This document shows positions 18,619-56,455 of a DNA stretch of 64,000 nucleotides, one piece after another. The notes under the pieces are model-generated. The model did not search any database. It was not told the origin of the DNA and worked only from the letters and a program-made list of their open reading frames with translations. The DNA lies in assembly GCF_009914755.1 (NCBI RefSeq), contig NC_060932.1; one strand, written 5' to 3'. Both the position numbers and the translations under genes were made by a program. The stretch's first letter is position 1. Each line of letters starts with the position of its first letter. Origin of the DNA: the human T2T-CHM13v2.0 reference genome, Homo sapiens.

Positions 18619-18720
18619 CCCGCACCCGCACCCGCCGCACCTGCCCGCACCCGCCGCACCTGCCCGCACCCGCCGCACCCGCCGCACCCGCCGCACCCGC
18701 CGCACCCGCCGCACCTGCCC
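18619..18720. repeat. GC-rich minisatellite (CCGCCGCAC)n interspersed with CCTGCCCGCAC
   Basis: Directly visible 9-bp units at the exon 1/intron 1 junction. Confidence 0.9.
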
Positions 18721-18746
18721 GCTCGCCGCTCGGTCCGCAGTGTCTC
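18715..18746 (-). other. EPPK1: Probable short non-coding first exon of EPPK1
   Basis: About 25 nt downstream of the TATA-like box: ...gcgagcgggCAG|GTGCGG donor (GT at 18713-18714). The TSS is approximate. Confidence 0.6.
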
Positions 18747-20247
18747 CGCGCGCCCGCTCCGCCCGCATTTCAAGCCCCACAGGCCCCGCCCCCGTCTAGG
18801 GCGGCGCCCAGGTCGGGGCCCCGACGCGGGGCGGGGCGGGGCGGGCAGGTGCCGGAAACCCCGCGCGGCCCGGGCCTGGCGCTTGCACCCCGGGCAAGGG
18901 GCGGCGGCTGGGCAGCCGGGACCCTCCCCTCGTCCCCAGCAGGGAGTCACCGCGAAGGAACGCAGGGCGGGCGCGGAGGCGTCCTGTGCCCTTCAGAACA
19001 GCTTTTTTTTTTTGGGAAAGGAGTTTGGAGTGAAACGCGGACCGGCCAGAGCGGCGGTTTCTATCCCCACAAGCCACTAATGCGGTGCGGGCTGGTGTCC
19101 CTGCCTCCAGCCCCGACCCCACCTTGTCTGCTCAGCTTCCTGGGGACGCTGCTTCACGTCGTGTGTCTGCTGGGTCCAGGGGTCTTCAAGGCTCTCCTTG
19201 GCAGGCCCCCCTGCCCCCATGACGTTGTAAGAGCTGGGATGTCCTGCCTGGAGCAGTGCCAGGCCTCACCCCCCGGTCTGGCTCCTCCACCTGGGCACAG
19301 AGAATGTTCCCTGTCACCCTGGGAGTACCTGGTCCCCTCTCTGAAGCCCATCCTGGCACCCACCTTCCAAGGCTGGGGCATGCCAGAGACACTGGGCATG
19401 GAGGCTCACAGCCTCGGGGGCTGGCCTGGGGGCAGCCTCAGCCTGGCACGGGAACCTTCCATGGATCTTCTGGAGGGCCCTCCCCTTGGCTGCCCCGATA
19501 TCCCAGGTGGGCAGGGCCACGGAAGTACAGGGCCCAAAGCCCCTCCTCCTCTGTCCCCAAGGCCCCTCCTCCTCTGTCCCGTAGTCCTGGAGGTCCTGAG
19601 GGCTCAGGTGCTCCCCACCCCCACAAGTGCCCCCTTCTCCCAAGCTCCAGCCCCCACCTCTGCCTGAGTCATTCTTGACCAGAAAATCATCCAGAGCCAG
19701 CCAGCCACCTCCAATGCACACCATGAGGGTAATTGCAGGCGCCCACGCAGGTGCAGGAGGGACAGGTTAGGCCTTCAGGGGTTAGGGTGCTTGGGACCAC
19801 TGCCCTGGCTCTGCTCTCACCCACCCACCAGGTCCACACTCACACCTGCTCACCCAGGCTGCCTGGACCCTGTCCACACCTGCCACACTGGCCGCACAGC
19901 ATGGCTGCTGCCGACTGCGGGGCCCTGACCCCAGAGGAGCTCTGGTGGAACCCGCATTTCCCCAAGGCACTGCCAGGCCAACCGCATCCATCCCCAGCCC
20001 TGCTCACCGGATGCCTGGACACTGTCTGTGTGGTCTTGCTGGGAGGCATGGTGGTGCTGGCTATGGCCTGTGGCCTGGAGCACACCCCAGAGCCACTTCT
20101 TCCTGCGGTGAGCCATTGCAGGCAGCGCCCCTGCCAGGCCACAAAACCTGGGTGTATGCCAGCCCCTCGCTGCAAGAAGGGGGTGTTAGGCTGGCCAGAC
20201 CAAGCCTTCTTGTGTGCCCAGGGACGGGCCACATGCCTGTCTGCTCC

Positions 20248-20432
20248 TCACCCCTCCGGTATAGGCAGGTGGCACAGAGCTGGCCCTGCTCCGCTGCACC
20301 CATTTCTGCCCGTCACCCCTCCAGTATAGGCAGGTGGCACGGAGCTGGCCCTGCTCCGCTGCACCCATTTCTGCCCGTCACCCCCCTGGTATAGGCAGGT
20401 GGCATGGAGCTGGCCCTGCTCTGCTGCACCCA
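20248..20432. repeat. 65-bp tandem repeat, ~2.8 copies
   Basis: gtataggcaggtggca... recurs at 20259, 20324 and 20389. Confidence 0.9.
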
Positions 20433-21607
20433 CTGGCATCTGTCCCCTGGCTCCTCTCCCTCGGCTTTGTCTTCCTGTGACTCCAGATCCCCTGCCCTGT
20501 GGTGGCCCCCAGCCCAGTGACCTCTGGGGACACCTCTGGGGGCAGACTTGGGTGCCTGCCCTACTCCCCAGGTCCCTGGGCCACTCCCAGTCAGGGCTTC
20601 TGGGAGCCACCACCTCCCCAGGGGCTCCAGTCCAGTGCTTCAGCCCAGCAGTCCCCGGAGCCACAGGCCACTCCTCCAGCCCCCAGGCCTGGGCCTATAC
20701 CACCTACACAGCAAGGAAGGGCATCAGGGAGGGTGTCAGGAGGTGAGCGAGAGGGCTCCCATGCCCAGTACTGCCCACGGCTCTACCCACCTCCTCCTGG
20801 CACTGGCACCTAGCTTCCCCCTGCAGGTCAGGGAGGCTCTCAGAAGACCTGGTCCAAGGAGGGAGGTCCCAGAGCCCCAAGACCAGTGCCCACGCTGCCC
20901 CTGGGCTGCTCCATGGAGTCACCGTGCTGGTTGGAGCCTTTGGCCAGGATCCCCATTGGTCCCTTGGAGCCTGGCATGGCCCAGCTCGAAGGGGAGTGCC
21001 CGCCATTGCTCCATAAAGCATCTGGGAGCAGGGTGTCCCCTCCACGGCACATGGCCCAGAGAGGAGACAGGGCAGATGCAGGCAGGATGGAGGGCCCGGC
21101 GGGAGCGGGTGGGACAGAGCTGAGCAGCAGGCTGACCTCTCCACCAAGGGCCTGGACATAGCAGCCGGCAGCTCCAACCGCAGGCCCAGGTACAGGGGGC
21201 GGGCAGCCTTGGGGGTGAGCCTTCCTCTCAGGCTGGGTGCCCTCACAGCAAAGACATGGGCTGCTCTCCCAGTGGCTCTCAGGGGACACCTGCCATCAGG
21301 GGAGCCCAGTGATGCAGCTGCCTCCGGGGGCAGGGAAGGGCTGAGGTGGGGGTTGGAGCCCTGCTGCCTCTGTCCCCCACGGAACCACCCCCCACATCCC
21401 AAATTCTCTTTCTCCACACCCTCCTCGCTGTGCGTCTCACTGATCCCCCATCCCCAGTCAGCCAGGGTGATGACACGGGCTGGCCCAGCTTCTCCTGCCC
21501 AGGCCTCGGAAGCCGGCCGGCACGAGGAGCACAGCCTCTGCCTGCCAAAGGCCCCCATGCTGCTCGGTCAGGGCCAGGAGAGGAAGGGCCAGAGGATTCC
21601 TCCCAAC

Positions 21608-22010
21608 TGTGGCTTGAACTCCATCCCCCAAATTCCTACGTCGAAGTCCAGACTCCAAATCCTCTGGGAATGTGACCTTCTTTGGAAGCAGGGTCGTTGC
21701 AGATGCGGTTAGTTGGGATGAGGTCATGCTGGAGTAGGCGGGCCTCATCCCATGTGCCTGGTGTGCTTTCAAAAAGGGGCATCGGACACAGACGAAGACC
21801 CACAGAAAGGGAAGATGATGTGAAGATAACAGGAAGAAGATGCCGAGGAGAAGCCTGGAGCTGGGTCTCACCTCATAGCCGCTGAGGGAAATAGCCCTGC
21901 CCACATTTCCATTTTAGACTCTGGCTTGGAGAGCTTAGGGTCGATAGTTTCTGTTGTTTGAGTCACCCCATTGGTGGTGGTTGGTTAGGGCAGCTCCGGG
22001 AAACTCAAAC
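21608..22010 (+). mobile_element. MaLR (MLT1-type) solo LTR
   Basis: gaatgtgaccttctttggaagcagggtcgttgcagatg...gatgaggtcatgctggagtagg; ends ...gttagggcagctccgggaaactcaaaca. Confidence 0.75.
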
Positions 22011-24082
22011 AGTCCCCAAGCCAGGGAAATAAGCCAGGGAGAGCAAGGGCAGAGGGGGCCGCAGGGTCCAGGTGTGAGGCAAACCCAGCTTCTCCCATTT
22101 TATAGAAGACAGAGGAGGAGGAGGGGGAGGAGGAAGGGGAGAAGGAGGGGAGGAGAAGGGGGAGGAGGAGGGGAGGAAGGCTCAGCCAGGACGGAACCCA
22201 CTCTGGGCCTCGAGGTTGCATTAAACACAGGAAAGGAGGCCCCAACCTGTATCTCAGAGTGAAATTTTTTCCTATCTTGCTCCAAATGTATATTCTTTCC
22301 AGTTGCCACATAAATGGAAGTCATACGTAGCAATACCATGCTCTTAACTGGGAATTCTACTTGATTGAAAAGGTAGAAGGCACACCCAGGTACCCAGGCC
22401 CTCTCTGCCCCACCCCAACACAGTTTAGAGGCTGGGTAGTGCTGTTCTGAGAGGTGCTGTCCTTGGGCTGGCTAGACCCACCTGTGGGGGCAGCCAGGAC
22501 CACCTGTACCTCCAGCTCTGACCCCATGGGAGAGCAGCACAGCCATGCATGGGGGATTGCAGTTGTTAGAAGGATGGGAGCTGAGCCATGAAATCGGCAC
22601 CAGAAATCGCTGCTCAACCCCGCCTGTCCCTGCCTTCCTTCTCCCCTGCCATACCCTCTTCTCCCTAAAGGGTGGGTGTCCTCTGGCTAGGCCCCTCCCA
22701 GCAGCTCCAGCCCAGAGCGTCCAAGTTGTCCAGCCTGCCCGTGGTCATCTCTCCTCCCGAGGGACTCTGGGGTGACTTCCTCCCTCCCTCAATCCTCCAA
22801 GGCACCTGCAAGGCTGGGGCCCAGCGGCCCTCTGGCCAAAGCCTCTCCCGCAGCCCCACCAGGCTTGCTGGCCTGGCCCCCAGGTGGCCTTCAGCCCCGT
22901 GTCCTGCTGCTGAGGCCCTGACCAGGGTTCCCCCAGGGATTCCTCCTCTGCCTAAAACACAGCTGGGGAGAGACAGTGCCACCTGAGTGCCAGTCTTGGG
23001 CCTGGCACCCTCCCCACCTGGCCCCAGTCCCCTCCAGAGCCTGACACGGGCAATCTCTAGGTGCCTGGTAGGAAGTGCTGTCTCGGGGCCACCACTGGGT
23101 GTGCCGCTGCCTGGCCGGGGGCTTATGCCTCCCATGCCATACTGGCCACCCGGGCCCTCAGCTGGGGGGGAGCCAGCATCGTCCTGGGCGGCCTGGCCTG
23201 GGGACTGAAAGCCCTCGGCACTCCCAGCCACCCTTGCTGCTCAGGGCTGTGAGCTGCAGCCGCCCCAAAGGGTACAGGCAGGTGGAAACCCTTCCTCTGG
23301 GGTGGGCCAGGTGGGCGCAAACACCTGCTCCTGGTTCTTGAGTCCTTGACGTTCAGAGGCTGCTCCTGCCAGTGTGATCTGGGCCTCCAGGCCTGCTGGG
23401 GATGAGGGCTCAGCAGACCCCATCCTTGGGGCACAAAGCAGCTCCCGCTGGGCACAGGCAGCACCATCCTTGGTCAGCCTCATGCAGTCCCGGAGCCGCT
23501 GCAGCGGCTGCTCCACCAGCTGAGCTTCATCCCCTGCCACGCCACAGGGAAGGGGCCAGGGGCCAGGGGCCAGGGGCCAGGGGCGGGGACACGGGCATTG
23601 GGAGGGGGCCTTGGACTGGGGGCCTGGGACGTGTCCCCCTGGGGCAACATCACAGACATCAGCACCAGGATGGCGCCCCAAGGCATGGCGGATGAGGGGC
23701 TGGGGAGGGGCTTTTCTGGAAGCACTCGGGACTCCTTGGGGGTCCAGCCAGCCGGGCTGAGGGACAAGGCTGAGGGCCCCTTACCCATGAGCAGCTCCAC
23801 CAGCCTCCGGCCTGTCTACAAGACCTTCACGTCCTGGATCCGCGCGGCAGCCTCGTCACACACATGCTGCAGACACAGGCTGGGGGCACATGTGTGCTGG
23901 GGACATGGAGCCCTGCGCAGCCTGCCGCCTCTCCCTGGGCCCAGTTCCTACCTGCAGGCACTGTACGGCCCCTCCTGGCCCTCGGGCTCCAGCCGCCCTG
24001 CCACAGCGCAGCCAGGAGAGTGTCCTGGCCACTTCGAAGCTGTGGGCTGCCAGGAAAAGTTGCTCCAGGACCCCCGAACTCC

Positions 24083-24617
24083 GGACCAAGACCGGGCAGC
24101 CGGCATTGCCCTCCCCACATGGTGCCCTCCCCACATGGTGCCCTCCCCGCACAGGTGCCCTCCCCACACGGTGCCCTCCCCACTCACGCCCCCCACAGCC
24201 TCACCTGGGGACCAAGACCGGGCACCGCAGGGCCCTCCCCGCACGGGTGCCCTCCCTGCTCATGCCGCCCACAGCCTCACCTGGGGACCAAGACCGGGCA
24301 GCCGGCAGTGCCCTCCCCACTCACGCCCCCCACAGCCTCACCTGGGGACCAAGACCGGGCAGCCGCAGGGCCCTCCCCACTCACGCCCCCCACAGCCTCA
24401 CCTGGGGACCAAGACCGGGCAGCCGCAGGGCCCTCCCCACACGGTGCCCTCCCCGCTCATGCCCCCCACAGCCTCACCTGGGGACCAAGACCGGGCAGCC
24501 GCAGGGCCCTCCCCACTCACGCCCCCCACAGCCTCACCTGGGGACCAAGACTGGGCAGCCGCAGGGCCCTCCCCGCACGGGTGCCCTCCCCGCTCATGCC
24601 CCCACAGCCTCACCTGG
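24083..24617. repeat. VNTR with ~60/79-bp units (cacagcctcacctggggaccaagaccgggcagccgcagggccctcccc...)
   Basis: About 7 copies of cacagcctcacctgg with internal ggtgccctcccc sub-repeats; fills one pseudogene intron. Confidence 0.9.
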
Positions 24618-27600
24618 CCTCTGCCTGCTGCACCAGGCAACCCCGCTGTGCACACGGCTCCGAGGGGCTCCCGGCTTCCTGCAGCCTCTGCTCCACCAGA
24701 GGCACCCTTGCCCCCAGCAGGTACAGGAGCAGCTGCTGGGACATGGGGGCGGGCTGAGCGCAGGGGGCTGGTGGCCTCTGTCCTGCCCTCCCACCAGTGC
24801 CCTTCACAGGGGTCAGCAGCCACGGGGACAAGAGCCACATCTTCCACCAGAGTCTGCCATCTGTCTGCCCCCCAGGGAGGGTCGGCTGTGACCTGACACC
24901 CAGCGGCATCATTGGGAATCAGTGGCTTGAGCTGAGATTCAGAGGCGATTCAGAGGTGTCCCAAAGGTGTCACTACTCAGCCCTGCCCCCCGCTCCCTGC
25001 ACCTCCTGTTCCTGCAGCTGCCACAGCATGAGGGACCAGAGGCCATGAAAGGCCTGAGCTCCTCCATACCATCCAGCCAGCTGCGAAGGGCATCCAGGGA
25101 CCCTGGGGATGCCTGCAGGAGGAATGACAGCTCCAGGGGCTGCCCTCCCCCCTACCCTGGCTGCTCCTGCCTCACCAGAGCCATCTGCCCCCCTCACTCA
25201 CCAGGCTTCAGTTCCACAGCCTGTCACCGCCATCTCCATCACCAGTGTCTGTCACCTCAATGGCACGGGGGCTCCACCAGGCCCAGGAGCTCCCAGAACA
25301 CCGCTGGCGGCAGGGACCCCCCAGACTTGGGGCCTAGCCCCCGTGTGGCTCCTCCTCAGCCCCCCGCAGCCCGACCATGAGGCCGGGTTTCCCCGTGGTG
25401 AGCACTGTGGGGCGAGGAGACCTGAAACAGATCTGGAAGAGGCCACCCAGCCCGCCCAGCCCCCTCGGCCCTGTGCTCAAGGCTGGGGCTAAGGCCACAT
25501 CCTCAGACTTACTGTCTGTGGCCACTGCTGCAGCAGGCCTGGGGGACGGAGGGAGCCCAGAGCCCAGGGGTCAGCTCCACCTTTACTGACGTCCCTGCCC
25601 CCAGCCTTCCCTCCCAGCCACAGCTTGGCCCGTCCCATCCAGCTGTCAGTGTGGCCAGTGCAGCCAGTCGAGCCACAGCCTCAGTGTTTTCCTCTTGACC
25701 CTGCCTCCTGCCGCCACTTGTTTCCAGGGAAACCAGGACCCGGCCCCAGCCATGTAAGTAGGAGAGACTGGGAAGGGGCTTCTCACCCTCCCCCTAGTTT
25801 CTTGCACCTCGGGGGAGGTGAATAGGCCAGGGTTGGAGGAACTCACTGCTCCCAAGGCCCGTCTGGCCCACTGGACTGAGCCCCCACGCTGGGCAGGCAG
25901 CCAGAGGGAGGGATTGCTGGCGGTGGATGCCAGGCCTGCCCTGGGAGGATCTGGGGGCGGGCAACATGGGGGTGCTGATCACACTCCTGTGGGCCAGGGA
26001 CTGAGGAGCTACAGGTGGGCTCTCCCGCCTCCTCCTCTGCAGCCATGCAGACCTCAAGGATCCCTGTCTCCTCACCTACACCCTCGATAGCCTCTCCATT
26101 CCCCAGCTGCCCCACCCCTGGGGACCCGACAGCCCCCACCCAAGACTTCCCACCACCCCAGACTGGCCGGTCTCGCTGCCAGGAACCTCCACCCTGTGGC
26201 CACGCCTTTCCCACCCAGGCCTGGAATGAACCTGCCCCTCCCCAGCCTGGAGCCCCCCTCTCCCAGGCCTGACAATGGGGAGAGGTGACTCCCCAGCGCA
26301 GGAGTGGGCGCCCCTGGTCCCTGCAGGTGCAGGGTGGTCAGCTGTGTCCGCAGGTGCCAGTGCAGACCCTCCCCCCACCCGCTGAGTCCTTCATCCAACA
26401 CTGGCCTCTACCGAGGAGTGGATGCTGTGTTGGGCACACAGGCCAAAGCCCACCTGTGCCCACCACTGTGCTGGGCCCCAGGCCCAGCAGGAGCCACCGC
26501 TGCTTGGGTAAGAGAGGGGACAGAGAGCAGGGGCCCAGCCTCCGGGCAGTCTGGACAGACACTGGGAGTCCCTGTGGGGCCCAGGCCCACCCCTGCCCGG
26601 GCATGTCTTTCTCACAGAGTTTGTGCTGCTGTTGCCTGGGGAACTTTCCATCAGAAGATGCTGGGTGGGGTGGGTAGGCAGGCCGGGCGGGCCCGCAGAC
26701 GCGCTGTGGGTGGATGGGTGGTGGACGCCTCTCCCGGGAGGGGCTGCTCTGGCCCACACCCTCGGACGGCCCACCCTGCCCACTCGTACCCCCACCTCCA
26801 GGCCCAGAGGTGCCAAGCATGTGAGCCCCACAGGATCCACGGTGGGCATCCCAGCACAGCCGCCAGGGAGGCCGGCACGTCTGCACCAGGGCCTGTACCA
26901 GGCAGGCCTCATGACCCCTCCTCTTCTCTCCTGGGGAGGAGGGGCAGGCGCCCTGGCTCCTGACGCCCTGGGTCGCCTCCCCGCCCAGGCAGGGCATGTG
27001 GGGTCTCTGTCAGAGCCTCCACAGGGCCGGCCACAGGGCTGAGGCCCAGGGTAGCCTCCAGCCACTCCTGCGCGGCACCTGGGGCAGGGTCTGGGCTGCA
27101 CCTGGCTCCTCCTGGAAAGGAACAGCAATGCTCGCCAGGCAGGACCCCAAAGCACAGCGGCCACCCCGCCTCCCCCAGGGGCTCTGACGGCCACTTTTCG
27201 AGTTGCGGGCACACCCAGCTCCTGGCAGCTCAGCTGACCACAGGGTCCCTTTCCACAGCGAGGCTTCGCCATCATAGCAGGGGCCCCGCCCTCCACGCCT
27301 GCGCCTGCACACAGAAGTAGGTGCCTTGCTGGGGCCCGAGGCCCCGTAGCTTGGGGCTCGTCCTGGGTGCTGCCACGGGACCTTCACACAAGCCTGGACG
27401 CTGCCATGGGTGGTCACGCAGGCCGCCTCTCTGCCATGACCTCCCTTCTCCCTGTCCTCTCCTTGCCCATTCAAGCTGACATCCTCTCCCAAGACCTCCC
27501 CTGGCTTCGTGCCCCTGACCCAGGCTGGGGACAGAGGTCTGGCCCCACCTGCACCCGAGGCTTTCTGCCTTCAGGGTATCACAGCCCCAGCACCGGGGCA

Positions 27601-29040: not shown

Positions 29041-32000
29041 GGTCCACCTGAGCCATCTTGGGGGCCTGGAACGGGGGGCAGGGTCAGCCCGGCTGAGCTG
29101 TGGCCTGAGGGTGGGGAGGGAGTGGTTCCCCAGAAATGTCACTGCCAGGATCTGGGGCAGCGTGTGCTGAAAGATGTATCGGGGCAGGGCCTGGGAGGGG
29201 GTGAGCGCATCTCAGCAGACGCCGGGGAGGGAGAGGCGGAGGGCAGGGACTGGATTCATTCCAGCCCTCTGCATGCCGCAGCAGCCACCGCCTGAGACAA
29301 ACCCCCGAGGAGAGGGAACCCGCTGGCTGAGCCCAAGAGTCTGAGGCATGGTTGCTCAAATAAAAATGGACCTCGGCTGTGAAAACAGCACAGTTCACTT
29401 TTCGCCCACCTGTGTTTGTGGTCCGAGGTGGTGCCAGTTGTGTGACTATGGTTATGGACTCTAGGAGGCCTCGTGTGGCTTCAGAGGGCTGAGGGCGACG
29501 CTGGAGGACACGCTGAGTTCCTGATGGTTCCGTCGGGCTGAGCTGCGTCCGGATAAATGTGACAGGAAGCAGCTCGGACACACTGATGGCTGGAGGCCCT
29601 GCAGCTCCTGCTGCTTGGCATGCGCCGCGGGCCTGCGTGTCAGAGCCGCCTCTCTAGCTCGGCTCTTGCGGTCATGCTGGCCTTGGTCTCCACATGGCTT
29701 TGGGTTGGCTGTTCTTCGTGCCATTTTCTTTCTGGCTCCGTCTCCATCTCTGGAGTGGGAGGTGTCTGAACAGGCATGCGGAGCATCACCAGGTCCCAGT
29801 GCCACGACCCCCGGCACGGTGGGTCGCCATGATGCTGTGTGGCCTGCCAGGTGATAGGCGCCCTTGGGCCACATGGTGACAGAGGGTGCGAGGGTGCCAC
29901 TACCCCGTGATGAGCTGTAAACACACATTGTTATCCATCCCAGGAAAACACAAACTGCTTCTGTTCCTCTTTCTTGGCAGGTAAGGGAAGGGATGCCCTC
30001 CCGGGCTCTGGGAGATGTGCGTGTGCGGGATGCCACGTGACACAGCTGAACCTGAGGGGCCACTTTTGGCAAAGGCAGTGCGACAGGCCCGTGTCACGGG
30101 ACCCGTGGTCGCCGTGGTGATCCGCGTGGCAGCGCCGGGACTGCGGCCCTCAGGTGGTGGAGCCACCCCGCAGAGTCGCGCTCAGGGACAGCCGGGTGAC
30201 CACGGGCTGTGGAGCTGGGCACTGCGCTCCAGGGCAGGGCTTATGCCCTGAACCCGTAAGCAGTGCATCCTCAGCCTCTCCTCCCCAGTAAGTAGAACGC
30301 ATGGGCCTGGGGTGAAGAGGTGGAAATGGGAGGGGCCACACTCGCCATCCCTGCCGGTGCCCTCTTGCAGATCCTGCATCCCCTCCTGCAACCAGATACC
30401 GCCAAGGGCCGAGAGCCCAGTCTGAGCAGAGGACACTGAGGCCACCGCCACGCCAGGGCAGCTACTCCATTTTCAAGTGAACCTGAGCACAGCTCCTGGG
30501 TTGCATGAGGGGTGGGCTTGGTGGTGCCAAGCAAGAAAGGACAGGCATAGCGCCGGGGCTGACCGCGTGGGTGTGGGCTCAGGACCTGGAGGCCGTAGCT
30601 CGAGCACTCAGTCCAGCAGCCAGGAGCGGCTCCAGCAAGGGCCAGGCTGTGACCAGGGCTGGCTCAGACACCGCCGTGATCCCAGGAGGAATGAGCTGAT
30701 GGTGGGCTCCAGGGGTTACCGCCAGAGAGTAAGTATCCAGGCCTGGAACCTCCTGTGGGAAGGGGGTTGGCAGCTTCCAGGAAGGCCCTGCCTCCTGCAG
30801 CCCCGGTGGGCCCCCTCGCACCTGTATCTACTCCAGCAGGTACATTCCCGGGCCTCTCCAACACCCTGCACACCTGTCCAGTGCTCCCACGTCTCCGGCC
30901 GCCTGCCTAAGCACGGCTGCTGGCCCGATGTCCTTCCTCAGTACCGGATGCCTGCTTTCAAATGCTGTGTGGGGCTCATGAGCCATGGGCCCCGAACCAA
31001 CTGGGAAAGACCCAGCCTCCCCAATCTGTGGCGGGGTCTGTGCCTGATCCTGGCTGACTCGGGCCCGTCCTTGGCTCTCAGTCCACTGCAGTTGGTTTGG
31101 GGCCCACAGCTCATGAGCCCAGCACAGTCCCATGCCCTGCTGCCTCCGAAAGCTCCCTCGTCTCTGGCAGTGGGGGCCACGTCGGGGCTGTGATCTCCGC
31201 TGCAGCCAGAGAACTGTGGTGGGCAGCGTCCCCAGCGTCCCCTGTGTTCAGGTGGGCTGCGACACCGGGCCCCTCCTGACGTCCTGGCACCCGCCTTTCA
31301 CTCCCTCCTTCCTTGTCACCCCCAGAAGCACTCCTCCTCGCAGCCCCTGACGCAGGCTCTGCCGACCCCCAGCTGTGCAGCCAGCTGGGCCCCCAGGACC
31401 GCCAGTTCCACCTCCCGGAACTACCTTCCTTCCTCCACCGCACACTGGCCAGGGAGGGGCCGTCAGATGTTAGCAAACTCTTCCTGCCCAAGAGGCCACA
31501 CCTGCCAGCCCACTCTCAAAATCAGCCCTGGAGAAACTCCCCAAGCAAGAAGGGGTGTGGACTCCAGAAACCGCCCAGTGAGGCCCCGGTAGGGGGAGCT
31601 GTGGGCGGTGGGCTCTGCGCTTGCTGCTCCCCGGCCTGGTCTGCAGACCATCATCCACCCCTTCACCGCAGGCCACTGCCGCGGTCGATGGTGGCTTTGA
31701 GGAAAACCCTGGCTGGGTGACCAGTTGTGACAAGAGCTGGAGGCTAACATCGCCGGGCCCCTCCTCCAGCCACTGTCCTCTAAGCCCTGGGGCTGCAGGA
31801 AAGCAACCTGGGAAGCCCACCTCCCTCAAATGCATATGGGGGGATCCATGGCGCCCTGGCCCCCAGGACAGACCCTGTAGCCTGCCAGACAGCGGGGCAG
31901 CCGTGAACGTGCAGTGGGGGCGTGGGCCGCATCAGGCACAGACACGGCTGAGCGGCAGGTGCTGTGGAGGCAGCCAATGAGCCAGTGGACTTTCACATGA

Positions 32001-46719: not shown

Positions 46720-47000
<281 letters not shown>

Positions 47001-48560
47001 TGCATCTGCTAAACTCTTTTCCAGGTGGTTGAAGCACTGGTATTTCCATCAGCTCAGTGTGAGAGCTCTGGTTGCTGTACCTCCCATCAACATTTGACAT
47101 GTTTAGTCTTTTTAAATTTTCAGGCATTCTAGTGGGTGCATGATGGTGTCTCACTGTAATTTTAATTTCTATCTTCCTAATGACTAATGTTCTTGCATCT
47201 TTTTATGTGCTGTTCGCCATCCATATATCTTCACTGGTGAAAGGTCTGTTGAAATCTTTTGTCTATTTCTAAATTGGATTATTTCTGTTTATTGAGTGCT
47301 GGGGGTTCTTTGTATATTCTGGATACAAGTCCTTTATCAGTTATGTGATTTACAAGTATTATTCCCAGTCTGTGGCTTGTCTTTTTATTTTCTTAACAGT
47401 GTATTTTAAAGGGCATAAGTTCCTAATTTTGATGAAGTCCAATTTATCGATCTCTTTCTTCTATAGATCATAATTTTAGTGTTATATTTCAGAAATATAA
47501 CTCAAAAATGACAAAGATTTTTCTCTTACATTTTCCTTTAGATGGTTTATCATTTTAGATTCCAGTTGTGATCCATTTTGGGATAATTTTTGCACATGGT
47601 GTGAGATTAATTTTTTGCATATAGATGGTGAAAAGATCATTATTTTTTCACTGAAGTTCTTCTGTACCTTTACTTAAAATCAAATGACAATAGATGCATG
47701 GGTCTATTTCTGGACTCGGTTGATCTATATTTCTGTGTTAATATCAATACCTCGCTGTCTTGATTACAATAGACTTGCAACAGCCCTTCAAGTCAGATGG
47801 TGGACGTCCCCTCAATTCACTTTTCTTTTTCAAGGTTGTTTCAGCTGCTCTTGGTCCTTTGCATTTCCATATTAATTTTAGAATCAGTTTGTCAATTTCC
47901 ACACACAAAAAAACCTACTGGAATTCTGATTGGGTAGCACTGACCTGTAGTTCAAGTTGGAGAGCATATCTCAGCAATATCGAGTCTTCCAGTACATGAA
48001 CAAGGTCTGTCTCTACATGGACTTAGGAGTTTAATTTCTCTCATCAATGTTTGGCAGTGTTCAGTGTTCAGGTCTTGCACATCTTATCAGAATTATTCAT
48101 ATTTCACATTTTTGATGCTATTTTAAGTAATGTTTTAAATTTCACTTTATAATTGTCCATTATTAGAACATAGACGTACAGCTGATTTTTATATCTTGAT
48201 CTTGTTTCCCACAGTCTGGCTAAACTCAATAGTTCTAGTTGTTTTTCTGTAGATTCTATCAGATTTTCTACATGGGTAATCATGTCAATGGCAAATAAAG
48301 ACAGTTTTACTTCTTCCTTTTCAATATGGATGCCATTTGTTTGTTTATTATTTATCTATCTTTTCTTTTTGCCACTGGCTAGAAGCTTCAATACAATGTT
48401 GCCCTTTTTCCTGATCTTAAGGGAAAGCATTTGGTTTTTCATCATTAAATATGATGTTAGCTGTAGATTTTTCATAGATGCCCTTTATCCGGTTGAGGAG
48501 GTTCTCTCTTCTTCAATTTCTTGGAAGCGTTTTTACAGAATTGTTATTGTTTTTCCTTAA
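47001..48560 (-). mobile_element. Old L1 (L1M) ORF2/3' region, antisense
   Basis: tatattctggatacaagtcctttatcag, ttgatgaagtccaatttatc, ttttagaatcagtttgtcaatttcc, gcaaataaagacagttttacttcttcc. Confidence 0.85.
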
Positions 48561-48657
48561 ATGGGACATTGAGTTTGCAGTAAGCCATGATGGTCCACGG
48601 CAGTCCAGCCTGGATGACAGACGGAGACCCTATCTCTTAAAAAAAAATGCAGGTTCG

Positions 48658-48952
<295 letters not shown>

Positions 48953-49489
48953 TGCAGGTTCTGATCAGCGGGTTTTCCATGAAAGGTTCACTTATGCAAA
49001 GCAACCCTCACATGAGGACGGAGCTGAGAAACCAAAGAATGAGGCTGACAGATTCGGTTTGTCAGGAGAGGGTGCTCTACTGGGGAACCTGCCACCAGGG
49101 GTGGCCTTGGGTGGGACAGGTGCAGCTCTGCACTGTTGCTCCCCAGACCCAGGGCTCAGCTTCTCTGTAGGGAAAGGCTCTGCATGCTCCACACAGGCAA
49201 GAACGCAACATCGCCTGTCATCTGTGTAATAACATCAAGGCTGCTCTGATGGAAAGGCAGGATTCATAGCGAGTGCACGTTCTTACACTAAGGACAGTAG
49301 ATACGGCAGGAATCGGGGCATTCCCAGGACGGCGGCTCATCAGAAGTCTGCACGGTGGAGTAGAACCTAACACGGAGTCACTTCTGTCTCCACAGTGGGT
49401 CTGCGCTGGGTCTCGAGAGTCTTCATTTCAGAAGTTCAAGGGTGAAGCGCTCGCTCCTAGTTCACGGAACACACATTAAGAGGCTTCCG

Positions 49490-50150
49490 CTTTTGCTAAT
49501 GGGTTGTGTCCATTATCCTTTCGTAGGGAATCTGTCTTTTCTCTCTAGCTGCTTTAATTTTTTTTTCTTTTTTGGTTTTCGGTTTTCCGCAATTTTACTA
49601 CAATGTGTTTTGATGTAGATGTTTTATTTGCCATACCTGGGTTTTACTGTGCCTGTTGGATAAATGGTTCATGTTTTTCATCTATTTGGAAAACAATTAT
49701 CAGCCACTATTTCTTCAAAACGTCCTCACCTTATTCCAGGATCTTCTTATAGAACCCCAGCTGGACTGATGCTAGATGTCTTCTGTTCTGCCTCCTAACC
49801 TCTCTTTCCTGTTTCCCATCTCTGGGATAAATTCTGAGTAATTTCTTTAGATCTATCCTTTAATTCACCAATTCTTCAACTATGATTCGTCTGCTGTTTA
49901 GTCCATTGAGCTTTAAATATTATTAGTATATGTTTCATTTCTAGAAATTCTATCAAATTTCTTTAAAATCTTCTTGCTCTTTTTAGCTAGAATTTTACTT
50001 CTCACATTATGGATTTGTTGTGTTATAAACATTTCAAACATACTCACTGTGTATTCTTTATTGAATAATTCCAGTATCCTGCGTCCCTCAGCTTCCAGTT
50101 CTGCCCTTGTTCATGATGCTCGTTTCCATGCGTCTTGTAACTTTTGACTG
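49490..50150 (-). mobile_element. Diverged L1/HAL1-like fragment
   Basis: T-rich antisense L1 5'-region motifs (tcagccactatttcttcaaa, tttcatttctagaaattcta). Confidence 0.5.
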
Positions 50151-51356
50151 CGTCATGTTGGAAAGCCCGAGGTCTTTTATCTGAAGCCTGGGAAGCCTTG
50201 GTTGGGGGCAAGACCTCCAGATAAGATTATATTGGCTCATACCAGGTACCAGGCAACAACCAACCTGGGGCCATGGTGATGTAATTCCTCCACATGGGGT
50301 TCTCCAGACCCTACAGGGGGATGGCCTGAAATTGTAAAGCTCAGTGGAAACGCTTTCCTGTCAGAGCCCAGGCAGGATCCAGTGTTTCCCTTCTGTGGCT
50401 GGATCGTCGGAGAACCCGCTTTCTCGCTGGGTGCAGCCCTTTGAGGATCCGGATGCCACAGAGGCCTCTGGCTGTACGGCCCGCATCCCGGCCTCCTGTT
50501 CCTGAGGACCTTTAAAACCCGAGGCTTCAGCCTTCCAGGATCAGCAAATTCCTCGGGAAGCGTCAGCTCAGCCGCTGCACTGAGGACCCTCCTTTCTCTT
50601 TCACCCCTGGTGGTTTCCTTGTCTTTTTGGTAACGTCAGAATGCACCCGAGAAGCTATTTAAGTTTTACCCGGATTTACGTGGGAGGAGTTTTCAAGGGT
50701 CTCTCGGTCCGTCTGCGCTGCTACTGAGGAGCTGCCACCGTGAAGGCAGCTGCCGTGGCCGATCCTCCAAGATCCCCTTGGGTGTCCTTGTTCCCCTCCC
50801 CAGCTGCTGCAGACGCTCACCTGTGTCCTCCTCCAGAACACTGCCCTTGGCTGACAAGAGCTGCTCATTCAGAGATGCCTGAGGACCACGTGCCACCCCA
50901 CAGGCAGCTCAGACCCACGTGTGGGCAGGAGTCAGAGCCTCTGAGCTGTGCCCTTGCCTCTCAGATGTCCGTGGGGCAGGGCTACGGCTCCAGCCCCCTT
51001 TGCCAGCTCCTTGCCCTCCCCACTTGTTGCACCCCTTTTCTGAGAATTCTCCAGAAACCATGTGTAACTGAGGCACCGCCCTGGGGAGCCTGCCTGGGAT
51101 GGGGGGGCGCAGACGTGGTCCTGGCGCACAGATGCCACAGTTGGTCAGAACACCACCGACTGCCTGGCGATGCTGTCAGCCTGGCACCAATGGCAGTGCA
51201 GCCGCTGGAGCTCCCACCTGTTGAGACGTGCTGGCAGCGGGAGGGAAGGTGGGGGCAGCGGCCAGAAGACCCTGACCATGGGGGCCCATGAAGCTGGCTC
51301 ATGGAGCGCCACAGTCTGACAGGAGACGCAGATGGGCAGCCTGCAAGGAGCTGCTC

Positions 51357-55424: not shown

Positions 55425-56455
55425 GCACGGGAAGGTTGGAATTGCTTTTATTGGGGGCGGATACCGCAAGGCCCCGCCCACGGTCAGGTTAGTGTTCTGC
55501 CCTTGCAGAGGCGCCAGCAGCCTGACACCTCCACCTGCCACCCGCCCGGGGTTAGTGGAACATGCAAAGCTCAGAGGGTGGAGGCAGGGGTGGTCGCTGC
55601 TGAGACCAGGGCTGGGTGCAACAGGAGGGTCAGCACAGAGCCTGGCTGGTGTCCCTGGGCCCAAAGGGGGCTGGGGCTCCATGGGAGAGAGACGGGCAGG
55701 CGGCACCCCAGTGTGGGGCTCCACAAGCTGGAGGGGCCCCTGGACCCACCAGGAGGACAGGTCTGCAGTTCCCAGCCATGCCGGCTGGAACGTCCGCCTC
55801 CCCACTGGGTCTGGGTCCTCGGGGCCTGGGGTTAGAGGCCGACATGGAAGGCACTTACTAGGGGAACAGAGGCTGGAGGCTGACGCCGGAGGCCAGGGGT
55901 CTCAGGAGTGAGTGTGGGGGGTGAGCTGGAAAGCACAGATCAGACAGCACTGTGGGGGCTGGGCCCGAGGGCCTCGTCTTCCCATGGGGAAGGGGCTTCT
56001 CTGGGTAGACTGGGAGAGAGGCTGACTGGGGCCCCCCGTCCCCAGCAAGGCCCACCGTGCAGGCCAGTGCTAGAAACACCAGGGCCCTCTACAGACAGGG
56101 TTGGGCCCAGCTGCCCTGTGCAGCTAGGACTGGCAGGCGGGCTACCCTGGGAAGACAGGAGGGTGGGCTGGGGCCCAGCTTGGGACCCTCCAAGGCACCT
56201 GGCTGTGTGAGTGGCAGGTAGAAGGGAGTGAGGAGACCCGAGGGGGTGAGGCGGCCAGCAGGGCTGGGCCAGCCCTGTCCCCCAAGATACAGGCTGTCTG
56301 GACAGCAGATATATATTAATATATTAGTCTGGTCTTTTTGGTTAAACTTTAGGCACCACTTGGGAGGAAGACACCTTTAAGCGTTGAAAACGGCCCCCGC
56401 GCCTCGGTGGGAGCCGGGCTGGGCCGCATGCAGAGCGGGGTGGGCGCAGGCAGCC
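55425..56455 (-). other. PLEC: PLEC 3'UTR
   Basis: Between the TGA at 56456-56458 and the AATAAA; cleavage site approximate. Confidence 0.8.
55447..55452 (-). terminator. PLEC: PLEC polyadenylation signal AATAAA
   Basis: tttatt on the + strand ~1 kb after the PLEC stop; followed on the minus strand by GU-rich sequence (ccttgtgtcttgggg). Confidence 0.85.

What the first reader, a model, noticed from the sequence alone, without database searches (positions are those of the whole stretch)
23325..25112. Five phase-compatible spectrin-repeat pseudo-exons collinear with a MACF1 segment
Segments 25003-25112 (110 nt, frameshifted), 24614-24732 (phase 0 to 2), 23952-24078 (2 to 0), 23785-23866 (0 to 1, in-frame TAG at 23816-23818) and 23325-23533 (starts phase 1) splice consistently. 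They give SLDALRSWLDGMEEL..QLQEQE / LLLYLLGAR..AEA(S) / GVLEQLFLAAHSFE..LQ / HVCDEAAARIQDVKVL*TGRRLVELLM / GDEAQLVEQPLQRL. This parallels recalled MACF1 LESLLSWLADTEEL..QIQEQK / LLQRLLDDR..AAAR / QKQLEDILVLAKQFHE..HK / ALNEEIVNRKKNVDQAIKNGQALLKQTT / GEEVLLIQEKLDGI. Several consecutive matching phases are unlikely by chance.
Basis: partly seen in the sequence, partly recalled or inferred. Interest (0 to 1): 0.82.

Follow-up and report, generated by a model that had tools for sequence, protein, structure and literature searches.

The report
Relic exons of lost MACF1CTL gene
Between the human plectin and epiplakin genes lie decayed exons of a spectrin-repeat cytoskeletal gene that other vertebrates still have but placental mammals lost, which suggests the gene decayed where it stood and was not removed whole.

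Summary
The five minus-strand segments are real.

Generic spectrin tests failed. Pfam gave no hit, and my own spectrin HMMs scored the stitched peptide no better than its shuffles.

The decisive evidence came from a published gene, MACF1CTL. [quoted passage not shown]

- The stitched exons align in one collinear stretch with residues 211-399 of an intact family member, P0141. The score is 59.7 bits, E 2e-12 against 150 proteins. None of 4000 decoys reached it, and all four exon junctions are gap-free.
- On the same strand, 3-4 kb further on, I found a frameshifted EF-hand exon relic (19985-20154) and a GAS2 relic (19659-19730).

So this is a unitary pseudogene relic. It keeps spectrin repeats 1-2, an EF-hand exon and part of GAS2. 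No trace of about 14 middle repeats was found.

The gene loss is published. I found no mention of human remnants in that paper's main text; its supplements could not be opened.

The parts
25003..25112 (-). Pseudo-exon E1. It encodes helix A and the start of helix B of spectrin repeat 1 (..PGSLDALRSWLDGMEEL.. then QLQEQE after a frameshift). The exon may start at 25151, after a 'tag'.
   Evidence: tblastn of P0141[200-520] hits 25106-24990 (E 0.024), the best hit in 14.3 kb. It aligns to P0141 211-249.
24614..24732 (-). Pseudo-exon E2 (LLLYLLGARVPLVEQRLQE..LVQQAEA), phase 0 to 2. It is about 14 codons shorter than in P0141.
   Evidence: P0141 250-~305. The junctions on both sides are gap-free in the blastp alignment.
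24107..24617 (.). Minisatellite filling intron 2 and running 4 nt into E2 (units of 60 and 76 bp). On the minus strand its unit starts like the E2 donor (gtgaggctgtgggg) and ends like an acceptor (ggtccccag).
23952..24078 (-). Pseudo-exon E3 (SGVLEQLFLAAHSFEVARTLSWL..VQCLQ), the start of spectrin repeat 2, phase 2 to 0.
   Evidence: tblastn of P0141[200-520] hits 24122-24009 (E 0.19), the second-best hit.
23785..23866 (-). Pseudo-exon E4 (HVCDEAAARIQDVKVL*TGRRLVELLM), with an in-frame TAG at 23816-23818, phase 0 to 1.
   Evidence: It aligns to P0141 ~357-384 and to the N-terminal end of P0128.
23325..23533 (-). Pseudo-exon E5 (GDEAQLVEQPLQRLRDCMRL...NQEQ). The first ~35 codons align and the rest has diverged.
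   Evidence: tblastn of P0141[200-520] hits 23540-23439 (E 0.78), the third-best hit. Against P0128 2-101 the E value is 0.015-0.019.
20155..23324 (-). Stretch where spectrin repeats 3 to about 16 (roughly 1,390 residues in P0141) would belong. No relic was detected, so most of it is presumed deleted.
19985..20154 (-). Relic of the first EF-hand exon, frameshifted. HPGFVAWQGRCLQWLTAGRS is in one frame and KKWLWGVLQATGHSQHHHASQQDHTDSVQAS in another.
   Evidence: tblastn gave P0149 E 2.8e-4 and P0132 E 0.002, with six more family members at E 0.08-0.41.
19790..19853 (-). Possible relic of the first GAS2 exon (WVSRCECGPGGWV against ..QVAQCNCAKRFQV..). Weak and uncertain.
   Evidence: (E 2.6) and by eye.
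19659..19730 (-). Relic of the second GAS2 (GAR) exon, TLMVCIGGGWLALDDFLVKNDSGR. A donor (AGAG|gtgggg) sits at the same codon position as in MACF1. The first ~15 codons of the exon are not readable in this frame.
   Evidence: Pfam GAS2 E 3.1e-4, 21.0 bits. The best non-self matches in the human genome are the GAR exons of DST and MACF1. tblastn E 1e-9. Identity is 81% to four family members (two of them also).

Best explanation
These are the decayed remains, still in their original place, of the human copy of MACF1CTL. [quoted passage not shown]

On the minus strand, running from PLEC towards EPPK1, the human genome keeps:
- five pseudo-exons for spectrin repeats 1 and 2 (25112/25151 down to 23325);
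- about 3.2 kb with no recognisable relic, where some 14 repeats should be;
- a frameshifted first EF-hand exon (20154-19985);
- the core of the second GAS2 exon (19730-19659), about 0.9 kb upstream of EPPK1 exon 1.

The copy cannot encode the protein. It carries a TAG in E4, frameshifts in E1, in the EF-hand exon and apparently in the GAS2 exon, several internal deletions, and the loss of most of the rod.

Shown here: the homology, the order, the strand and the lesions. Inferred: orthology to MACF1CTL, the ancestral role (a microtubule-binding spectraplakin C-terminal module, by likeness to MACF1), and the absence of any present coding function.
For: 1. The paper. [quoted passage not shown]

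2. The family in the protein library. Ten proteins are 50-70% alike over long matches and mostly 35-50% like the MACF1 representatives (a few family pairs are nearer 40%). P0141 and P0106 have Spectrin, EF-hand and GAS2 domains and no CH domain. P0145 runs from Spectrin and EF-hand domains into 16 Plectin repeats, as a gene model would if it merged MACF1CTL with its neighbour EPPK1.

3. The spectrin exons.
- blastp of the stitched E1-E5 against P0141 gives one collinear alignment, query 16-166 to P0141 211-399. It scores 59.7 bits, with E 7e-14 against two subjects and 2e-12 against all 150 representatives.
- E2-E5 alone score 45.4 bits, E 6e-8 against the 150.
- Decoys reaching 59.7 bits: 0 of 2000 shuffles (maximum 27.7) and 0 of 2000 randomly stitched intergenic ORFs (maximum 47.8).
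- All four predicted junctions are gap-free in that alignment.
- A profile of the family scores the peptide 5.5 bits, E 1.5e-4. Shuffles reach that in 0 of 2000 and random stitches in 4 of 2000.
- An unguided tblastn of P0141[200-520] against 14.3 kb, both strands, ranks E1, E3 and E5 first, second and third, all on the minus strand and in order.
- P0141 217-308 and 314-399 are spectrin repeats by an HMM seeded from SPTBN1, SPTB and MACF1.

4. Independent relics. See the GAS2 and EF-hand entries under parts. They lie in the domain order of the family and on the same strand.

5. Single copy. The ORFs holding E2, E5 and the GAS2 relic have no other strong match in the human genome.
Against: - Generic spectrin models give no support. 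Pfam found no Spectrin hit on any of the 7 ORFs. My spectrin HMMs do no better on the real peptide than on shuffles. In a scan of 1443 ORFs the top hits are an L1 element, not these exons.
- The other long family member, P0106, gives only weak hits to the stitched peptide (E 0.3-3.7). The spectrin evidence therefore rests mainly on P0141, with some from P0128.
- Single-exon tblastn E values are weak (0.024-0.78).
- The EF-hand relic is only 29-35% identical.
- The GAS2 match covers 24 of 69 profile positions and is 0.3 bits below Pfam's cut-off. It is only one residue closer to the family than to MACF1.
- No vertebrate genome other than human could be searched.
- The exon set was chosen by a reader looking for compatible phases, so phase agreement by itself counts for little.
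Confidence: 0.9

Rival explanations
1. It is a chance pattern. GC-rich DNA gives long open frames rich in L, A, E, Q and R, and many AG and GT sites, from which a reader can pick a phase-compatible chain.
For: Stop codons are rare at 66-70% G+C. Generic spectrin HMMs cannot tell the peptide from its shuffles. There is no Pfam or PDB hit. The ORFs holding E2 and E5 find no spectrin gene in the human genome.
Against: None of 4000 decoys reach the score against P0141, and E is 2e-12 against 150 proteins. All four junctions are gap-free. The unguided tblastn puts E1, E3 and E5 on top. EF-hand and GAS2 relics lie downstream on the same strand in the right order. A published gene of exactly this make-up belongs at this spot.
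Confidence: 0.02
2. It is a fragment copied from MACF1 or DST itself (a segmental or retro-copy) that landed here and decayed.
For: The GAS2 relic's best human matches are the GAR exons of DST and MACF1, at 72% over 25 residues. E1 resembles three MACF1 repeat starts.
Against: The intron positions are kept, so it is not a retro-copy. The stitched peptide scores 59.7 bits to P0141 but at most 32.3 bits to any MACF1/DST-like representative. The EF-hand relic is found with family members (E 2.8e-4) but not with MACF1's own exon (E 1.3). Location and strand fit the ancestral gene order.
Confidence: 0.03
3. The exons are still in use. They might be unannotated coding exons, or spliced non-coding upstream exons of EPPK1 or of a PLEC read-through transcript.
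For: All ten splice dinucleotides of E1-E5 are canonical and the donors are close to consensus. Net frame is kept within E2, E3 and E4 despite deletions. By the annotation supplied with the task, RefSeq enhancer calls abut or overlap the relics (19454-20096, 25114-25637).
Against: There is a TAG in E4 and a frameshift in E1. Most of the rod is missing, and the EF-hand and GAS2 exons are broken. By the supplied annotation, RefSeq has no transcript here. No library protein of 122-2000 residues holds E5 except a 177-residue copy of the same human ORF. The exons were picked because their splice sites look good.
Confidence: 0.05

Closest known systems
MACF1CTL (MACF1 carboxy-terminus-like), described in PMC8782857 (Sci Rep 2022;12:1112; passages read)
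   Same: Position between PLEC and EPPK1, orientation, and domain order (spectrin repeats, EF hand, GAS2). The best protein match is a family with that make-up.
   Different: The human copy is a broken remnant. It has 2 of about 16 repeats, one EF-hand exon, about a third of GAS2, one stop and several frameshifts. The paper's main text calls the gene absent in placentals and does not use 'remnant' or 'pseudogene'.
MACF1 rod exons at C1:39290612-39296170 (human)
   Same: Paralogous spectrin repeats. The intron positions and phases match for E1/E2, E2/E3 and E3/E4.
   Different: Similarity to the relic is only marginal (tblastn E 0.5-1 for E1 and nothing for the rest). MACF1 has no intron where E4/E5 is split. 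The MACF1 exons are 1 to 16 codons longer.
Unitary pseudogene relics of genes lost in mammals, such as the vitellogenin remnants (recalled, not looked up here)
   Same: Exon-sized remnants stay in the ancestral syntenic place, keep order and strand, and carry stops, frameshifts and deletions.
   Different: Here the middle of the gene is missing, and the 3' relic lies within 1 kb of the start of a living neighbour gene (EPPK1).

Membership tests
MACF1CTL (orthologous relic) | Lies between PLEC and EPPK1 on their strand | tested here: met
   The relics span 25151-19659 on the minus strand. By the supplied annotation, PLEC ends at 55432 and EPPK1 exon 1 is 18715-18744, both on the minus strand. 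The gene's position is taken from PMC8782857.
MACF1CTL (orthologous relic) | Spectrin repeats like those of the family | tested here: met
   Stitched E1-E5 against P0141 211-399: 59.7 bits, E 2e-12 against 150 proteins, and 0 of 4000 decoys reach it. That region of P0141 is two spectrin repeats.
MACF1CTL (orthologous relic) | EF hand | tested here: met
   A frameshifted match at 20154-19985 to the first EF-hand exon. P0149 gives E 2.8e-4, P0132 gives 0.002, and six more members give 0.08-0.41. The calcium-loop residues are not kept. No second EF-hand relic was found.
MACF1CTL (orthologous relic) | GAS2 (GAR) domain | tested here: met
   Pfam PF02187 E 3.1e-4, positions 45-68 of 69. tblastn E 1e-9 to the MACF1 exon. 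81% identity to four family members.
MACF1CTL (orthologous relic) | Closer to MACF1CTL than to MACF1 or DST | tested here: met
   Spectrin part: 59.7 bits against at most 32.3 bits. EF-hand exon: detected with family members, but E 1.3 with MACF1's own exon. GAS2: only one residue of difference, which says nothing.
MACF1CTL (orthologous relic) | The library proteins used as reference really are MACF1CTL | tested here: inconclusive
   No names or loci are given. The inference rests on the architecture (no CH domain), on within-family likeness of 50-70% against mostly 35-50% to MACF1, and on P0145 running into 16 Plectin repeats.
MACF1CTL (orthologous relic) | Open, complete coding sequence | tested here: not met
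   TAG at 23816-23818, frameshifts in E1 and in the EF-hand exon, and about 14 repeats undetected. It is a pseudogene, not a gene.
Spectrin repeat (Pfam PF00435) | Score over Pfam's cut-off of 29.9 bits | tested here: not met
   No Spectrin hit on any of the 7 ORFs that hold the exons, even at E up to 10. The stitched peptide could not be given to Pfam. My own spectrin HMMs scored it 0.5-1.2 bits.
GAS2 domain (Pfam PF02187) | Score over Pfam's cut-off of 21.3 bits | tested here: not met
   21.0 bits, 24 of 69 positions. It is a fragment of the domain.

The most novel reading that the evidence does not exclude
The loss may not have been a single event in the placental ancestor. The first five exons keep all ten splice dinucleotides and keep net frame inside E2, E3 and E4 despite 1- to 14-codon deletions. 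The surviving pieces abut or overlap RefSeq enhancer calls upstream of EPPK1. These pieces may therefore have stayed under selection long after the rod was deleted. They could have acted as a shortened coding gene in early placentals, as spliced non-coding upstream exons, or as EPPK1 regulatory DNA made from old exons. Some placental lineages may still carry a less broken copy.
Probability: 0.15. Interest if true: 0.6.

Novelty: new member of a known kind. Interest (0 to 1): 0.45.

Why it matters
MACF1CTL was proposed in 2022 as an eighth plakin gene and reported absent in placental mammals. Recognisable remnants in the human genome matter in three ways.
- They suggest the gene was lost by decay and internal deletion where it stood, not by removal of the whole interval.
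- They give fixed lesions (the TAG, the frameshifts, the missing rod) that can be compared across placentals to date the loss and order its steps.
- They add direct human evidence for the gene order PLEC, MACF1CTL, EPPK1. That order underlies the idea that PLEC and MACF1CTL arose by fission of a MACF1-like gene.

The finding also explains a stretch of unannotated, exon-like DNA just upstream of EPPK1. That is useful when reading variants or enhancer calls there.

Tried and rejected
- Pfam on the 7 ORFs holding the exons gave no Spectrin hit.
- A PDB sequence search with the ORF holding E2 found nothing at E up to 10.
- Pfam Spectrin over the whole human genome listed no match in this window among the 150 rows shown of 153. 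Only 150 of 2892 candidates were scored.
- Human-genome searches with the ORFs holding E2 and E5 found only themselves.
- tblastn of the exon peptides against 200 kb of MACF1 gave E1 at E 0.5-1. The rest was noise or Alu translations.
- My own spectrin HMMs on the stitched peptide, and a scan of 1443 ORFs, showed no signal above shuffles. The top hits were an L1 element at 47-50 kb.
I used ORFs instead.
- A word-based protein search with E5 returned only a 177-residue copy of the same human ORF. The same search with the ORF holding the GAS2 relic returned nothing at E up to 10.
- tblastn of MACF1 ORFs against 13.6-55.4 kb was swamped by Alu. I repeated it on the repeat-poor 18.7-33 kb.
- MACF1's own first and second EF-hand exons, first GAS2 exon and last-repeat exon found no convincing relic.
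- The family proteins found no relic of P0141 residues 1-210 upstream of E1, nor of residues 456-1790 between E5 and the EF-hand relic.
- A match at 30368-30472(-) to a late repeat of P0145 and P0132 (E 0.05-0.07) is out of order. I treat it as noise.


Full report
**What is there.**
Each is bounded by an AG acceptor and a GT donor of good form: GAG|gtgcag, CAG|gtgagg, CAG|gtagga, TGG|gtaagg and CAG|gtgttt. E2 to E5 join into 537 nt, which is 179 codons with one TAG. E1 needs one frame change. Intron 2 is filled by a minisatellite with 60- and 76-bp units.

The window is human (T2T chr8), and the whole genome could be searched.

I fetched 200 kb of the MACF1 locus. The recalled peptides are all there. 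I fixed the exon ends from the DNA:
- X1: 39290612-39290782, phase 0 to 0.
- X2: 39291911-39292077, phase 0 to 2.
- X3: 39295338-39295497, phase 2 to 0.
- X4: 39297125-39297209, phase 0 to 1.
- X5: 39297710-39297951.

The phases of the pseudo-exons agree with this pattern.

**Generic tests fail.**
- Pfam finds no Spectrin match on any of the 7 ORFs that hold the exons.
- The PDB sequence search finds nothing.
- The ORFs holding E2 and E5 match only themselves in the human genome.
- tblastn of the exon peptides against the MACF1 locus gives only E1 against three repeat starts, at E 0.5-1.0.
- I built spectrin HMMs from SPTBN1, SPTB and MACF1 repeats, and widened two of them with MACF1 fragments from the protein library. 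They score the stitched peptide 0.5-1.2 bits.
- Composition-preserving shuffles reach that score in 140, 712 and 743 of 2000 for the three models. Peptides stitched from random intergenic ORFs reach it in 7, 22 and 22 of 2000.
- The peptide therefore has a spectrin-like composition, but these models see no order-specific signal.
- A scan of all 1443 ORFs between 13.6 and 55.4 kb puts an AT-rich L1 element (47-50 kb) on top, not the finding.

**The literature gives the key.**
A search led to PMC8782857 (Sci Rep 2022;12:1112). I read passages of its abstract, introduction, results and discussion.

The paper reports an uncharacterised gene, MACF1CTL. [quoted passage not shown] They propose that PLEC and MACF1CTL arose by fission of a copy of MACF1.

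The main text does not contain the words 'remnant' or 'pseudogene'. The name MACF1CTL occurs in no other paper of the library. The supplements could not be opened, so they may hold something on placental remnants that I did not see.

**Independent relics downstream.**
The ORF list held a GAS2-like word at about 19.7 kb, so I tested that region.
- Pfam on 39 minus-strand ORFs between 18.8 and 23.5 kb gives one relevant hit. This is GAS2 (PF02187) on ORF 19314-19766, residues 13-36 against profile positions 45-68 of 69, E 3.1e-4. The score is 21.0 bits against a cut-off of 21.3. Three other hits are unrelated noise.
- In the human genome the best non-self matches of that ORF are the GAR exons of DST (C6:56307359-56307433) and MACF1 (C1:39336550-39336624), both 72% over 25 residues.
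- Among 2747 MACF1-locus ORFs run against window 18.7-33 kb, this is the one strong hit: E 1e-9, 17 of 24 residues identical.
- The donor after ...KNDSGR sits at the same codon position as in MACF1.

**Getting the family.**
I spent the single exhaustive search on MACF1's first EF-hand exon.
- Of the 150 representatives returned, 52 have 300 residues or more. I ran those against the window.
- Pfam on 20 of them, together with pairwise comparison, defines a family of ten: P0141, P0106, P0145, P0156, P0132, P0139, P0149, P0131, P0143 and P0128.
- Over long matches they are 50-70% alike and mostly 35-50% like the MACF1 representatives. A few pairs involving fragmentary members are nearer 40%.
- P0141 (2319 aa) and P0106 (2009 aa) have Spectrin, EF-hand and GAS2 domains and no CH domain.
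- P0145 runs from Spectrin and EF-hand domains into 16 Plectin repeats. That is what a gene model merging MACF1CTL with its neighbour EPPK1 would look like.

I take this family to be MACF1CTL. That is an inference, because the library gives no names.

**The decisive comparison.**
- blastp of the stitched E1-E5, with X at the stop and at the frameshift, against P0141 gives one collinear alignment. Query 16-166 aligns to P0141 211-399, with 32.8% identity over 189 columns, 59.7 bits and E 7e-14.
- Against all 150 representatives the E value is 2e-12. The next best are MACF1/DST-like proteins at no more than 32.3 bits.
- E2-E5 alone give 45.4 bits, E 6e-8 against the 150.
- No decoy reaches 59.7 bits. 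Among 2000 shuffles the maximum is 27.7, and among 2000 random stitches it is 47.8.
- A profile of the family scores the peptide 5.5 bits, E 1.5e-4. Shuffles reach that in 0 of 2000 and random stitches in 4 of 2000.
- An unguided tblastn of P0141 residues 200-520 against 14.3 kb, both strands, ranks E1 (E 0.024), E3 (0.19) and E5 (0.78) first to third, all on the minus strand and in order.
- P0128 independently matches E4-E5 (E 0.015-0.019).
- P0141 217-308 and 314-399 are its first two spectrin repeats, out of about 16 stretches.
- P0106, a more distant member, gives only weak hits (E 0.3-3.7).

**The EF-hand relic.**
Windowed tblastn of the ten family proteins produced 207 alignments at E up to 2, with 112 on the minus strand and 95 on the plus strand. 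It finds the first EF-hand exon at 20154-19985, split over two frames. P0149 gives E 2.8e-4, P0132 gives 0.002, and six other members give 0.08-0.41. MACF1's own exon gives only E 1.3 there.

The same run finds nothing convincing for P0141 1-210 upstream of E1, or for residues 456-1790 in the 3.2 kb between E5 and the EF-hand relic. Most of the rod is therefore gone.

A possible relic of the first GAS2 exon at about 19853-19790 is weak.

**How the relic relates to MACF1.**
MACF1 X1-X5 aligns best to P0106 155-534 (E 8e-25). A nearly identical block spans the X1/X2 junction. Other repeat registers score about 80 bits.

The E4/E5 intron has only the position and phase of the X4/X5 intron of the next repeat.

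**What it is and how it works.**
It is a unitary pseudogene relic. By likeness to MACF1 (established knowledge of spectraplakins, not tested here), the ancestral product would have been a spectrin-repeat rod ending in EF hands and a microtubule-binding GAR domain.

The human copy cannot make this protein. It has one stop, at least three frameshifts, several deletions inside exons, and the loss of about 14 repeats.

Two features are mildly odd for some 100 million years of neutral decay. All ten splice dinucleotides are kept, and net frame is kept inside E2-E4. Both are also what a reader selecting for clean exons would pick up. I leave them as a lead, not a claim.

**Novelty.**
The gene and its loss in placentals are published. 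Recognisable human remnants are not mentioned in the main text of that paper, nor under the gene's name in any other paper of the library. I file this as a new member of a known kind, of moderate interest.

Noticed in passing
window 47000-50200, minus strand: An AT-rich stretch (35-44% G+C) whose ORFs look like L1 ORF1/ORF2 pieces. Its lysine- and glutamate-rich coiled-coil ORFs outscore everything else against my spectrin HMMs, which shows how little those models discriminate. The L1 label is my reading of the translations and was not tested.
   Followed up: partly
window 24107-24617: The minisatellite in intron 2 has units of 60 and 76 bp. On the minus strand each unit runs from a donor-like gtgaggctgtgggg to an acceptor-like ggtccccag. 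It looks as if a whole short intron had been copied head to tail.
   Followed up: partly
window 20240-20432 and 22107-22180: A 65-bp tandem repeat (3 copies, 92% alike) and a GAG/GGA-rich tract lie in the stretch where the missing spectrin repeats should be.
   Followed up: no
P0145 (library protein, 2329 aa): A gene model that runs from three Spectrin repeats and EF hands straight into 16 Plectin repeats. Apparently MACF1CTL and EPPK1 were merged by a predictor, and part of its GAS2 region is read in a wrong frame.
   Followed up: partly
P0132, P0139, P0149 (library proteins, 556-618 aa): Three family members end 50-60 residues after the first EF-hand exon in unrelated sequence, as if read on into the next intron. 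Whether these are truncated models or broken genes in their species is unknown.
   Followed up: no
window 25050-25091, minus strand (inside E1): E1 (ALRSWLDGMEELRP) also resembles a second, more N-terminal motif of the family. It matches P0141 46-59 at 64% and P0106 92-109 at 44%. The family thus seems to carry a partial copy of the repeat-1 start near its N-terminus.
   Followed up: no
window 30368-30472, minus strand: A weak match (E 0.05-0.07) to a late spectrin repeat of P0145 and P0132 lies upstream of E1 and so out of order. I treat it as noise, but it could be a displaced fragment.
   Followed up: no
window 19454-20096 and 25114-26161: By the annotation supplied with the task, RefSeq enhancer calls overlap the EF-hand and GAS2 relics and abut E1. 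The 3' relic ends about 0.9 kb from EPPK1 exon 1, in DNA that rises to 75% G+C.
   Followed up: no
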